Below the pieces are notes generated by a model. The model worked only from the letters and a program-made list of their open reading frames with translations. It was not told the origin of the DNA and ran no database searches. A DNA stretch of 64,000 nt. Origin: Escherichia phage T4. Location: the sequence record NC_000866.4, one strand, 5' to 3'. Each line of letters opens with the position of its first letter. Within the stretch, counting starts at the first letter, position 1. Shown piece after piece: positions 48,564 to 51,853 of this stretch. Made by a program: the position numbers and the translations under genes.

Positions 48564-49705
<1,142 letters not shown>

Positions 49706-49761
49706 TTAATTGAAAACGAATGCTTACTTGGATAATTTCAATGACATACATAATATTTTCC

Positions 49762-50004
49762 TCAAACAGACTTTTTCACAATTTTCCAATCAGCTTTAAA
49801 CTGCTCGACGTCAGAATGGTAAATCCAAAATCCTGCGCTTTCTCCGTCTTCATAAAGAGGACATCCATCGCATTCATCTTCCCATCCCATATCACGTAAA
49901 AGATGTTCAGCTTTTTCAACAAGTTCAGAATCTTTACCGATGATATTAAAATACCATTTACCTCTAACTTCTGAATCTTTGATGCTCTGGCGTTGTAATC
50001 TCAT
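49762..50004 (-). CDS. frd.1: Hypothetical protein
   Basis: 80-aa ORF with AAGGAG RBS; name by synteny. Confidence 0.7.
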   Translation of the reverse strand: MRLQRQSIKDSEVRGKWYFNIIGKDSELVEKAEHLLRDMGWEDECDGCPLYEDGESAGFWIYHSDVEQFKADWKIVKKSV

Positions 50005-50113
50005 TTTATTCTCCTTAGCAAGCTTTAATCAAAAGATATAAACAGACCAACATAACTGCTGCCATAATATAAGGTGCGAACATTTTCTTTTCTCCATTAG
50101 TTTTGATAGGGTA

Positions 50114-50143
50114 ATAGTATCACACTACTACCCTGATGTAAAC
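50114..50143 (-). promoter_or_regulatory. Early sigma70-like promoter upstream of frd.1
   Basis: Minus strand GTTTACA - 17 nt - TACTAT, overlapping the frd.2 stop. Confidence 0.5.
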
Positions 50144-50544
50144 TACTTTTTGAAAGTTTTTCGCAAAAGTTCAATGATTTCATCTACATTGTTTTCGTCA
50201 ACAATGCAGTGAATTTTTGTTACGCCAGAAACCTTGTCTTTGACTTCATCTTCTTCAGAAGTCGGTTCTTTATATTCGCGGAAACAATAAAACTCTTCTT
50301 CACTAAGTTCAAAATAATCATCACCCATACCATCATCATTATAGATTTCACCATTAGCACAAATGATTTCGGTTACATAATCAAAGCCATCTAAACTTGA
50401 TATTGATTTAACTTCAAACCAACCGCCATTTTCTTGAATGATGCCGACCATACTAGCATTTGATGAACTAATATCAATGAAAGATTTAATACGATGTGGA
50501 TTTAACTCGTATTTTTTGCCGATTTCCATTTTGATTTTCCTCAT
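50143..50544 (-). CDS. frd.2: Hypothetical protein
   Basis: 133-aa acidic ORF with GAGGAAAA RBS; name by synteny. Confidence 0.7.
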   Translation of the reverse strand: MRKIKMEIGKKYELNPHRIKSFIDISSSNASMVGIIQENGGWFEVKSISSLDGFDYVTEIICANGEIYNDDGMGDDYFELSEEEFYCFREYKEPTSEEDEVKDKVSGVTKIHCIVDENNVDEIIELLRKTFKK

Positions 50545-50574: not shown

Positions 50575-50802
50575 TTATTGTTCAATCAGTCCCATGTAAA
50601 ATTCTGCGTCTTCAGAATCCATGCCATCACAATATTCATTAGCCATAAAGCGGGTGAGGTCTTCAAGAGGACCTTCAATAACGATTTGAATACTCCAAAA
50701 CTTAGAATCTTGCACGCTTGTGATACTAAGTTCAGGATAACGATTACGAATAATCTCTTCAATATATTCAAAATCAACGATGTCAATATCAACTTTAGCC
50801 AT
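50575..50802 (-). CDS. frd.3: Hypothetical protein
   Basis: 75-aa ORF; name by synteny. Confidence 0.65.
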
Positions 50803-50947: not shown

Positions 50948-51853
50948 TTAAAGGTCATTCAAAAGGTCATCCAGGTCCGTGTCATCAGCACTAGATGAAC
51001 TACCAGAGCTTGAGCTCATAAAATCATCTTCAGTTTTTGTATTGAAGTCATCAACATTGAATGCATCCAAATCATCAGCCACTTTATCAGCTTTCTTAGC
51101 AGCAGTTGCAGCAGCACCGCCCATCACAGCAGTTCCCATAACTTGACCGAATTTAGTATTAAGTTCTTCAAACGATTTGAATTTATCTTTAGAAGTCATT
51201 TCAGAAAGGTCAACCATTTGTTCGAACAGTTCTTTCTGGAAAGATTCATCGTCAATGTTTGGAATCGCAGATTGATTCAGGAATTTAGATTCATCGTAGT
51301 TACTAAATCCAGAAACTTGTTTAACTTTCAGTACAAAGTTAGCACCTTCCCACGGACAAGTTACATCAACTGGAGTTTCACCCATTTCAACATCAACCGC
51401 AATCATTGCATTGATTTTATCCCAGATTTTCTTACCAAAGCGGTATTTAAATACTTTACCTTCGTTTTCTGGAGCAGCTGGGTCTTTTACTACAAGAATG
51501 TTAGCCCAGTAAGAAGTTTTACGTTTAACAAGACTGTACTCTTTATTGTCAGTGTTGTATAGATCATTTTTACTGATGTATTGACATACTGGGCAAGAAT
51601 CGTAATCACCATGGGTAGATGAACATGTTTCAATATACCATTTACCATTTTTCTTGAAACCGTGATTTACAAGAATTGCGAATGGTGCTTGTTCATCATT
51701 TTTAGACGGAAGAAAACGAATTACTGCTTGACCGTTACCCGCATTATCGAGTTTCAGTTTCCACTCGCCTTTATCTTCAGAAGAAAAACCTTTATTGCCA
51801 TTCAGTTTAGCCATTTGTGCAGCGAGTTCAGCAGTAGATTTACGTTTAAACAT
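50948..51853 (-). CDS. 32: Single-stranded DNA-binding protein
   Basis: 301-aa ORF with zinc site ([14 protein letters not shown]) and acidic C-terminus; recognised as T4 gp32. Confidence 0.97.

What the first reader, a model, noticed from the sequence alone, without database searches (positions are those of the whole stretch)
50029..50082. 17-codon hydrophobic micro-ORF with a strong RBS between frd.2 and frd.1
Downstream of the early promoter at 50114-50143 and before frd.1 there is GGAG - 8 nt - ATG opening MFAPYIMAAVMLVCYIF. It is short enough to be missed by ORF callers and could be a small membrane peptide or a coupling ORF for frd.1.
Basis: seen in the sequence. Interest (0 to 1): 0.3.

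Follow-up and report, generated by a model that had tools for sequence, protein, structure and literature searches.

The report
Unannotated 22-codon membrane-peptide gene in T4
Between phage T4 genes frd.2 and frd.1 lies an unannotated 22-codon reading frame for a very hydrophobic peptide; it evolves like a real gene and occurs as a small add-on cassette at two different places in related phages, so it is probably T4's smallest protein-coding gene, though translation and function are untested.

Summary
The window is phage T4. The start is right (GGAG 50095-50092, 8 nt, ATG 50083-50081). The frame is 22 codons, MFAPYIMAAVMLVCLYLLIKAC, at 50015-50083 on the minus strand, not 17. Its TAA is fused to the frd.1 Shine-Dalgarno (TAAGGAG).

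All 199 GenBank phage records with alignable DNA keep the frame intact, and no listed record annotates it. It is absent from a 15-billion-protein collection and matches no Pfam, PHROG or NCBIfam family.

Twelve haplotypes show coding-type evolution: 13 of 21 minimum changes fall at third codon positions, 12 are synonymous and 9 are not (P = 3e-4), dN/dS is 0.04-0.21 (similar to frd.1), and there are no indels.

The ORF with its own Shine-Dalgarno is a presence/absence cassette behind homologous early promoter/stem-loop (PeSL-type) elements at two loci. These are frd.2|frd.1 in Tequatrovirus and Mosigvirus, and motB|cef in three Dhakaviruses. Sister genomes lack it cleanly.

The mRNA is unstructured, there is no terminator and no Rfam match.

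Best reading: an accessory, early-expressed small inner-membrane peptide gene. The coupling-ORF reading is weaker. Translation and function are untested. Moderate interest.

The parts
50114..50142 (-). T4 early-type promoter: -35 TTTACA (50142-50137), 17-nt spacer, TG-extended -10 TACTAT (50119-50114). It starts directly after the frd.2 stop TAG (50145-50143). The predicted transcription start is near A50107 (inferred).
   Evidence: Consensus scan. It fits the published T4/PST PeSL promoter consensus TTTACW-N17-TAYWAT (PMC4122927). The homologous site is annotated as a T4-like early promoter in phages SA21RB and Lutter. Not experimentally verified here.
50108..50134 (-). 12-bp stem-loop (AGGGUAGUAGUG-UGA-UACUAUUACCCU) overlapping the promoter spacer and -10. 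Together they form a composite terminator/promoter of PeSL type.
   Evidence: dG -15.2 kcal/mol, z = -3.5, 0 of 200 shuffles fold as well. The same site is annotated as a rho-independent terminator in SA21RB. Terminator activity was not tested, and no T-run terminator was found by the scan.
50084..50107 (-). Short unstructured 5' leader with the micro-ORF Shine-Dalgarno GGAG (50095-50092), 8 nt before the ATG.
   Evidence: leader plus ORF folds less well than all 200 shuffles, z = +2.38. An SD is retained in all lineages although the leader sequence differs: GGAG-8-ATG in T4, GGAG-7-ATG in Dhakavirus, GAGG-8-ATG in ESh15.
50015..50083 (-). Micro-ORF of 22 codons plus TAA: MFAPYIMAAVMLVCLYLLIKAC. 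It has an 18-residue hydrophobic core (F2-I19), then K20, and invariant P4, Y5, C14, Y16, K20 and C22.
50005..50017 (-). Junction: the stop TAA (50017-50015) is fused to the next gene's Shine-Dalgarno GGAG (50014-50011), 6 nt before the frd.1 ATG (50004-50002). The same TAAGGAG junction precedes cef in the Dhakavirus copies.
50090..50100 (-). Upstream copy (CTAATGGAGAA) of a short direct repeat. The downstream copy (CTAAGGAGAA, 50018-50009) lies at the other edge of the roughly 83-bp segment missing in Shfl2 and CrRp10, so this is a plausible recombination site for loss or gain of the cassette.
   Evidence: Alignments. PeSL crossovers have been mapped between the -10 box and the SD/ATG in RB49/phi1 (PMC2839356). 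The recombination itself is inferred.
49762..50004 (-). frd.1 (80 aa, DUF5417), the downstream gene on the same early transcript. It is context only and not part of the cassette.
   Evidence: Its dN/dS against the same phages is 0.02-0.085.

Best explanation
The interval holds a real but unannotated accessory micro-gene of phage T4.

Proposed mechanism:
- It is transcribed immediately after infection from the early promoter/stem-loop (PeSL-type) element that follows frd.2.
- It is translated from GGAG-8 nt-AUG on an unstructured leader.
- The product is a 22-residue peptide that is essentially one hydrophobic helix (F2-I19) with a C-terminal Lys-Ala-Cys.
- At 22 residues it is released while still inside the ribosomal exit tunnel, so it would enter the host inner membrane post-translationally.
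- There it most likely acts as a small single-helix membrane peptide that modulates or perturbs a membrane target.
- Its stop codon is fused to a second Shine-Dalgarno, so terminating ribosomes are delivered to the next gene. The roughly 83-88-bp cassette can therefore sit between a promoter and any gene without polar effects.
- This fits its presence/absence behind homologous promoters at two unrelated loci: frd.2|frd.1 and motB|cef.

Shown here: the anatomy, the conservation of the frame, the coding-type substitution pattern, the retention of the SD, the two-locus presence/absence pattern and the lack of RNA structure.

Inferred: promoter activity, translation, membrane insertion, the target, and PeSL- or SD-repeat-mediated movement.
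For: Frame conservation:
- All 199 phage records whose DNA aligns over the region also give a full-length 22-aa tblastn match. None is interrupted.
- 25 copies read directly give 12 haplotypes and 10 peptides, with no indel or stop.

Coding-type substitutions:
- Minimum changes by codon position are 6/2/13 (chi-square P = 0.012).
- There are 12 synonymous and 9 non-synonymous changes, although only 13.3 of 63 sites are synonymous (binomial P = 3.4e-4).
- Pairwise dN/dS is 0.04-0.21, comparable to the flanking gene frd.1 at 0.02-0.085.
- T4 and UP19 differ at 12 of 66 nt but at only 4 residues (simulation P = 0.008).
- All replacements stay within A/T/V/I/M/L/F. MFAPYIM and CLYLLIK.C are invariant despite synonymous changes.
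- The other two frames carry stops in every haplotype and change more residues per nucleotide change (0.59 and 0.64, against 0.39).

Translation signals and context:
- An SD is kept at 7-8 nt in three genera despite different leader sequences.
- The same ORF lies ahead of a different gene (cef) and behind a different gene (motB) in MN04, UP19 and Esco_phi_B-01. It is cleanly absent from JS98-type Dhakaviruses and from Shfl2 and CrRp10.

Chance and RNA-level checks:
- 2% of shuffles give such an ORF and 0 of 20,000 give one as hydrophobic. It is the only hydrophobic SD-preceded micro-ORF in the window.
- The mRNA is unstructured, with no Rfam family and no terminator.

Internal contrast:
- A true gene remnant 250 nt downstream (49701-49751) shows an indel and heavy amino-acid decay.
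Against: - There is no direct evidence of transcription start, translation or a peptide. No T4 ribosome-profiling or peptide data were found in the held literature.
- The statistics rest on only 19 variable sites in 12 haplotypes. These are not phylogenetically independent, and recombination could have spread blocks.
- About two thirds of relatives with this promoter lack the ORF (575 records against 199), so it is dispensable.
- T-rich sequence tends to encode hydrophobic peptides.
- The SD and ATG belong to the conserved PeSL 3' end and could be conserved for that reason.
- No homologue exists outside these 199 close relatives, in IMG/VR or metagenomes beyond T4-like copies, in E. coli genomes or in plasmids, so there is no deep conservation.
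- Membrane insertion and any target are pure inference.
Confidence: 0.65

Rival explanations
1. It is a translated upstream ORF whose act of translation is what matters, and the peptide is incidental. Ribosomes terminating at the TAA fused to the SD re-initiate on, or otherwise tune, frd.1 (or cef). Alternatively, its translation protects the early mRNA 5' end.
For: The stop is fused to the next SD (TAAGGAG) and lies 10 nt before the next ATG in every copy at both loci. It is the first ORF on the predicted early transcript. Tight coupling of this kind is common in T4-like genomes (general knowledge).
Against: The amino-acid sequence is itself constrained: dN/dS is 0.04-0.21 and the termini are invariant despite synonymous change. 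Sister phages drive frd.1 (Shfl2, CrRp10) and cef (JS98) directly from the homologous promoter and SD without it. The downstream SD is not sequestered, and the RNA is less structured than shuffles. The downstream genes at the two loci are unrelated. This explanation is not exclusive of the best one; coupling may be how the cassette avoids polarity.
Confidence: 0.14
2. It is a non-functional sequence: a chance ORF in a spacer that hitch-hikes with the promoter cassette, or a frozen N-terminal remnant of a longer gene lost by deletion.
For: It is absent from about two thirds of relatives. The family is narrow and shallow, at 12 haplotypes. Deletions that leave N-terminal stubs do occur next door, at 49701-49751. 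No known family matches.
Against: The frame is intact in 199 of 199 records, with no indels. There is an excess of synonymous and third-position changes. The SD is retained despite leader divergence. The same 22-codon length is kept in three genera and at two loci. tblastn found no longer homologue in 50,697 phage records at E <= 10. The shuffle test gives 0 of 20,000. The neighbouring true remnant looks quite different, with a 9-nt deletion and many replacements.
Confidence: 0.14
3. It is a DNA- or RNA-level element rather than a coding one, for example a small RNA, a terminator or attenuator, a second promoter for frd.1, or a protein-binding site.
For: A weak promoter-like match lies in the ORF's 3' end (50032-50003, TTGATT-18-TAAAAT) and is annotated as a predicted promoter in phage Lutter. 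A weak antisense promoter-like match also exists (50039-50068 on the plus strand).
Against: There is no Rfam match and no terminator. The RNA is less structured than every shuffle (z = +2.38). Three-base periodicity of substitutions is not expected of a non-coding element. The promoter-like matches score 9 of 12, in a region where 12 such matches were found against 4.4 expected. A transcript starting from the internal one would lack the frd.1 SD.
Confidence: 0.04

Closest known systems
PeSL (promoter-early stem-loop) regulatory cassettes of T4-type phages and their small ORF cargo (Arbiol et al. 2010, PMC2839356; Comeau et al. 2014, PMC4122927)
   Same: - The promoter fits the T4/PST PeSL consensus TTTACW-N17-TAYWAT.
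- It is associated with a strong stem-loop and ends in an SD plus a start codon.
- It marks an insertion/deletion difference between very close relatives.
- Homologous elements at different loci carry the same cargo.
- The indel borders lie between the -10 box and the SD/ATG, the zone where PeSL crossovers were mapped.
   Different: - The stem-loop overlaps the promoter spacer and -10, rather than lying just upstream of the promoter.
- Only one PeSL flanks the cargo. The other border is a short SD-like direct repeat (CTAA(T)GGAGAA).
- The cargo is 22 codons, smaller than any annotated T4 or PST ORF; the published size ranges start at 26 and 34 aa.
- Mini-circle formation was not tested.
Small hydrophobic membrane peptides of enterobacteria: type I toxins (Ibs, 18-19 aa; ShoB; Ldr; TisB) and small membrane-protein modulators (KdpF, AcrZ, MgtS/MgtR class). 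Named from general knowledge.
   Same: The size range (about 20-30 aa), a single hydrophobic helix, and a charged residue near one end. Such genes are routinely missed by gene callers.
   Different: There is no sequence match to any Pfam or NCBIfam model, which include these toxin families. No related DNA was found in 5,426 complete E. coli genomes or in plasmids. There is no evidence of an antisense RNA partner. Toxicity and any binding partner are untested.
T4 Stp, the 26-residue peptide that is the smallest annotated T4 gene product. The role of Stp is from general knowledge; the 26-aa lower bound of T4 ORF sizes is from PMC4122927.
   Same: A tiny, early, non-essential T4 peptide gene of accessory character.
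   Different: Stp is not a hydrophobic membrane peptide, and the two sequences are unrelated. This ORF would be four residues shorter and is unannotated.
Bacterial leader or upstream ORFs (attenuation leader peptides, coupling uORFs)
   Same: A short ORF that comes first on the transcript and terminates immediately before the next gene's start.
   Different: There are no terminator/antiterminator alternatives and the RNA is unstructured. The peptide sequence is conserved. The ORF is dispensable for expression of the downstream gene in sister phages.

Membership tests
Protein-coding gene (generic criteria) | The reading frame is intact in all homologous copies, with no frameshifting indels | tested here: met
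   199 of 199 alignable records give a full 22-aa match. 25 copies read directly show no indel or stop. The other two frames have stops in all haplotypes.
Protein-coding gene (generic criteria) | Purifying selection at the amino-acid level (excess of synonymous and third-position change) | tested here: met
   Changes by codon position are 6/2/13 (P = 0.012). There are 12 synonymous and 9 non-synonymous changes with 21% synonymous sites (P = 3.4e-4). dN/dS is 0.04-0.21, similar to frd.1. The sample is small: 19 variable sites.
Protein-coding gene (generic criteria) | A ribosome-binding site at functional spacing, conserved across copies | tested here: met
   GGAG-8-ATG (T4), GGAG-7-ATG (Dhakavirus) and GAGG-8-ATG (ESh15), despite divergent leaders.
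Protein-coding gene (generic criteria) | Direct evidence of translation or of the product | not testable with these tools
   No T4 ribosome-profiling or peptide data are in the held literature. The peptide is not in the 15-billion-protein collection.
PeSL-associated mobile ORF cassette | Early promoter matching the lineage's PeSL consensus (TTTACW-N17-TAYWAT for T4/PST) | tested here: met
   TTTACA-17-TACTAT at 50142-50114, against the consensus quoted in PMC4122927.
PeSL-associated mobile ORF cassette | A stable stem-loop (terminator) joined to the promoter | tested here: inconclusive
   There is a strong 12-bp stem-loop (dG -15.2, z = -3.5). However, it overlaps the spacer and -10 rather than lying just upstream, and it has no T-run by the scan. 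SA21RB's annotators call it a terminator.
PeSL-associated mobile ORF cassette | An SD and start codon of the cargo at the 3' end of the element | tested here: met
PeSL-associated mobile ORF cassette | The cargo differs (indel or replacement) between close relatives at the element, and homologous elements recur at other loci | tested here: met
   Present in T4, absent in Shfl2 and CrRp10. Present in MN04, UP19 and Esco_phi_B-01, absent in JS98. The promoters at frd.2|frd.1 and motB|cef are homologous. Matches to the promoter occur at 1,149 places in 575 records.
PeSL-associated mobile ORF cassette | The cargo is flanked by two PeSLs and excised as a mini-circle | tested here: not met
   Only one PeSL flanks it, on the upstream side. 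The downstream border is just an SD-like repeat, and there is only one copy of the element in the 64-kb window. Mini-circles cannot be tested with these tools.
Type I toxin / known small membrane protein families (Ibs, Ldr, ShoB, TisB and others) | Sequence match to the family model | tested here: not met
   No Pfam, NCBIfam or PHROG hits at E <= 10. No related DNA in E. coli genomes or plasmids.
Type I toxin / known small membrane protein families (Ibs, Ldr, ShoB, TisB and others) | A cis-antisense RNA antitoxin, and toxicity on expression | not tested
   Only a weak antisense promoter-like match (9 of 12). There are no expression data.
Lipoprotein signal peptide (considered because of the C-terminal ...LLIKAC) | A positively charged n-region and the lipobox [LVI][ASTVI][GAS]C followed by a mature protein | tested here: not met
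   There is no basic residue before the hydrophobic core. Lys sits at position -2, and Thr at -1 in RB32. The ORF ends at the Cys, so no mature chain follows.
Attenuator leader peptide | Alternative terminator/antiterminator RNA structures downstream of the leader ORF | tested here: not met
   No terminator was found. The RNA is less structured than all shuffles.

The most novel reading that the evidence does not exclude
A self-contained mobile micro-gene of roughly 85 bp: its own SD, 22 codons for a one-helix membrane peptide, and a stop fused to a replacement SD for the downstream gene. It moves between homologous early promoter/stem-loop elements of different loci and genera of T4-like phages. 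Its peptide would be a host-directed effector acting in the inner membrane, such as an anti-defence factor, an exclusion factor or a mild type-I-toxin-like depolariser. That would make it the smallest protein-coding gene of T4 and one of the smallest mobile protein-coding units described in a phage.
Probability: 0.2. Interest if true: 0.6.

Novelty: new member of a known kind. Interest (0 to 1): 0.4.

Why it matters
T4 is the reference phage for annotation, and its gene list is copied into hundreds of related genomes. A conserved 22-codon gene sitting in a "non-coding" gap would therefore be missing from all of them. None of the listed records among the 199 carriers annotates it.

If translated, it would be the smallest T4 protein. 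It would also be a compact example of how PeSL-type regulatory cassettes carry very small cargo between loci without disturbing downstream expression.

Small hydrophobic early peptides are plausible host-takeover or anti-defence effectors, and this one is easy to test by editing the start codon. On the other hand it is dispensable, narrowly distributed and of unknown function. The finding is therefore an annotation-level addition with some mechanistic interest and does not answer an open question.

Tried and rejected
Rejected as a one-base misreading.
- **Overlapping ORF 50029..50097 (MEKRK...).** Rejected. Its frame relative to the conserved part changes in the Dhakavirus copies, and frames +1 and +2 carry stops in all haplotypes.
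- **Curated T4 records NC_000866 and AF158101.** Not in the collection. I relied instead on other T4 records (OZ209023, OL964735, KJ477684/5, MT984581), which have no feature under the ORF, and on the published T4 ORF size range of 26-1289 aa.
- **Miller et al. 2003 review.** Not held.
- **Wider sampling.** Degenerate-pattern scans of IMG/VR (two scans) and of JGI metagenomes found only T4-identical copies.
- **Host or plasmid counterpart.** None found in E. coli genomes or plasmids.
- **Family searches.** Pfam, PHROGs and NCBIfam gave nothing. The search for homologous proteins refuses queries under 40 aa, and structure prediction needs at least 30 aa, so neither was possible.
- **Exact look-up in the 15-billion-protein collection.** Absent.
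- **Literature.** Searches for T4 ribosome profiling, small proteins, frd.1/frd.2 and the peptide string found nothing relevant.
- **RNA-element reading.** Rejected.
- **Lipoprotein signal-peptide reading of ...LLIKAC.** Rejected on lipobox and n-region rules.
- **RB32 orf231c as the source of T4's frd.1-frd stub.** Rejected. The stub derives from a different 110-aa gene.

Full report
**What the window is.** The region is 100% identical to Escherichia phage T4. On the minus strand the order is:
- gene 32 (50948-51853)
- frd.3 (50575-50802)
- frd.2 (50143-50544)
- a 138-nt gap
- frd.1 (49762-50004)
- frd (49109-49690)
- td exon 1

**Checking the observation.**
- The promoter-like site (TTTACA-17-TACTAT with an upstream TG, 50142-50114), the GGAG at 50095-50092, the 8-nt spacer and the ATG at 50083-50081 are all present.
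It has 22 codons, MFAPYIMAAVMLVCLYLLIKAC, then TAA, at 50015..50083.
That slipped into the frame whose TGA ends at 50029, giving a spurious ...VCYIF.
- The true stop, TAA (50017-50015), is fused to the frd.1 Shine-Dalgarno GGAG (50014-50011), six nucleotides before the frd.1 ATG.
- On chance: 2.0% of 20,000 dinucleotide shuffles of the gap give an SD-preceded ATG ORF of at least 22 codons, and none gives one as hydrophobic (GRAVY 2.05).
- Among 20 SD-preceded ORFs of 20-40 codons on both strands of the 64-kb window, this is the only strongly hydrophobic one.

**Is it annotated or known?**
- None of the T4 or T4-like records examined has a feature under it. One record has only a predicted promoter there.
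- The published size range of T4 ORFs starts at 26 aa (PMC4122927).
- The peptide is not in a 15-billion-protein collection.
- It matches no Pfam, PHROG or NCBIfam model at E <= 10.
- The string is not in the paper library.
- I found no ribosome-profiling or small-protein study of T4.

**Conservation.**
- blastn with the 171-nt interval finds the promoter part in 575 phage records, but the full interval in only 199.
- tblastn with the peptide finds exactly 199 records, every one with an uninterrupted 22-residue match. Every alignable copy is therefore intact.
- Reading 25 copies directly gives 12 haplotypes and 10 peptides, with no indel and no stop.
- The 19 variable sites imply at least 21 changes, distributed 6/2/13 over codon positions 1/2/3 (P = 0.012).
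- Twelve changes are synonymous and nine are not, although only 13.3 of 63 sites are synonymous (binomial P = 3.4e-4).
- Pairwise dN/dS is 0.04-0.21. That is the same range as the neighbouring gene frd.1 between the same phages, 0.02-0.085.
- T4 and the Dhakavirus UP19 differ at 12 of 66 nucleotides but at only four residues. Random placement of the same changes does as well in 0.8% of trials.
- Replacements are confined to residues 2, 8, 9, 11-13 and 21 and stay within A/T/V/I/M/L/F. P4, Y5, C14, Y16, K20 and C22 are invariant, several of them across synonymous codons.
- The other two frames contain stops in all haplotypes and change more residues per nucleotide change.
- These statistics are consistent with each other but rest on few, non-independent sites.

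**A presence/absence cassette at two loci.**
- In Tequatroviruses Shfl2 and CrRp10 the same promoter runs straight into CTAAGGAGAATAAAA-ATG of frd.1, and about 83 bp, the micro-ORF with its SD, is missing.
- The missing segment is bounded in T4 by the short repeats CTAATGGAGAA and CTAAGGAGAA.
- The Mosigvirus ESh15 has the ORF at the frd locus with a different leader and a GAGG SD.
- Three Dhakaviruses (MN04, UP19, Esco_phi_B-01) carry the ORF at a different locus, between motB and cef. It sits behind a homologous promoter and leader and ahead of TAAGGAG-ATG of cef.
- JS98 and most other Dhakaviruses have the same locus without the roughly 88-bp cassette.
- The unit [SD-22 codons-TAA fused to a second SD] therefore behaves as cargo that can sit between an early promoter and any gene.

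**The promoter element.**
- It fits the T4/PST PeSL consensus TTTACW-N17-TAYWAT and ends, as described for PeSLs, in an SD and a start codon (PMC4122927).
- A 12-bp stem-loop overlaps its spacer and -10 (dG -15.2 kcal/mol, z = -3.5).
- Annotators of phage SA21RB marked the same site both as a T4-type early promoter and as a rho-independent terminator.
- In RB49/phi1, PeSL crossovers were mapped between the -10 box and the SD/ATG (PMC2839356). That is where the cassette borders lie here.
- Differences from the published definition: the stem-loop overlaps the promoter instead of preceding it, only one PeSL flanks the cargo, and there is only one copy of the element in this window.

**RNA-level rivals.**
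- The predicted leader plus ORF plus frd.1 start folds less well than all 200 shuffles (z = +2.38).
- No terminator-like site exists.
- Rfam gives only a meaningless sub-threshold hit elsewhere.
- So there is no support for a structured RNA, an attenuator, or a sequestered frd.1 ribosome-binding site that upstream translation would have to open.

**Mechanism proposed.** Steps 1 to 3 are inferred from sequence. Step 4 is speculative.
1. Immediate-early transcription starts near A50107.
2. Initiation is efficient at an open SD-AUG.
3. A 22-residue peptide is released. It is too short to emerge from the exit tunnel before termination, so it partitions post-translationally into the inner membrane as a single helix, with K20 at the interface.
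4. It acts on a membrane target.
5. Ribosomes terminate on the SD of the next gene, which avoids polarity. The sequence junction is shown; the effect is inferred.

The gene is accessory, because two thirds of relatives lack it. Both SDs are GGAG, the motif cut by T4 RegB in early mRNAs (general knowledge), which would fit early-only expression. I did not test this.

**Comparison with known things.**
- *What it works like:* the small hydrophobic membrane peptides of enterobacteria (type I toxins, small membrane-protein modulators), and the small ORFan cargo of PeSL cassettes.
- *Membership in peptide families:* it is not a member of any known peptide family, since the family models were tested and gave no match.
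- *Membership as a PeSL cassette:* it meets most but not all features. The two-PeSL flank is not met and the stem-loop geometry differs.
- *Lipoprotein signal peptide:* the lipobox rule is not met.
- *Attenuator leader:* there are no alternative RNA structures.

**Internal contrast.** Just downstream, the frd.1-frd gap of T4 holds a 16-codon stub (49701-49751, [16 protein letters not shown]). It is the decayed 5' end of a 110-aa gene that is intact in CrRp10 and in an IMG/VR contig, and it shows a 9-nt deletion and many replacements. That is what a remnant looks like in this genome, and the micro-ORF does not look like one.

**Verdict.**
- Most likely (about 0.65) this is a genuine, unannotated, accessory early micro-gene for a 22-residue membrane peptide, carried as a tiny cassette behind PeSL-type promoters.
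- A pure coupling uORF (0.14), a non-functional spacer or remnant (0.14) and an RNA or DNA element (0.04) are less likely.
- It is a new member of known kinds of things, of moderate interest (0.4), and readily testable.

Noticed in passing
window 49701-49751 (- strand), between frd.1 and frd: A 16-codon stub, [16 protein letters not shown], with its own SD. It is the decayed 5' remnant of a 110-aa gene (MSDIHVTGI.QVNIRCQFKT...) that is intact in Citrobacter phage CrRp10 (L007 1226-1558) and in an IMG/VR contig (L009). It carries a 9-nt deletion and many replacements, and then the rest of the gene is deleted. RB32 and Shfl2 carry yet another, unrelated 81-aa ORF at this position, so the site is a small hyperplastic spot.
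   Followed up: partly
window 50108-50134 (- strand): A strong 12-bp stem-loop (dG -15.2 kcal/mol, z = -3.5) overlaps the spacer and -10 of the early promoter after frd.2. The homologous site in phage SA21RB is annotated both as a T4-type early promoter and as a rho-independent terminator. Homologous promoter/stem-loops occur at motB|cef and at internal-protein loci in related phages (1,149 places in 575 records).
   Followed up: partly
window 50029-50097 (- strand): An overlapping 22-codon ORF in another frame (MEKRKCSHLILWQQLCWSVYIF) starts at the ATG inside CTAATGGAG. It is not conserved: its phase relative to the conserved segment changes in the Dhakavirus copies, and that frame carries stops in all haplotypes over the shared region.
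   Followed up: yes
window 50003-50032 (- strand) and 50039-50068 (+ strand): Weak sigma-70-like matches (9 of 12) lie inside the micro-ORF. A sense match (TTGATT-18-TAAAAT) is annotated as a predicted promoter in phage Lutter, and there is an antisense match with an extended -10. The region has 12 such matches against 4.4 expected, so these are probably AT-richness noise. An antisense transcript would matter for a type-I-toxin-like reading.
   Followed up: no
L011 (phage AR1) 1-238 and L013 (phage PYPS2T) 1-241, upstream of the promoter: In AR1 and PYPS2T the gene upstream of the promoter/micro-ORF/frd.1 unit is not frd.2 but a different small ORF. AR1's is described by its annotators as best matching a JS98 protein. 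The upstream neighbour of the element is therefore also swapped between close relatives.
   Followed up: no
L004/L016 (MN04, UP19) against L014/L015 (JS98, Esco_phi_B-01), start of cef: The first codons of cef differ between Dhakaviruses: MTTKITANST in MN04 and UP19, against MAKV.VNST in JS98 and Esco_phi_B-01. This does not track whether the micro-ORF cassette is present, which suggests separate recombination events at this junction.
   Followed up: no
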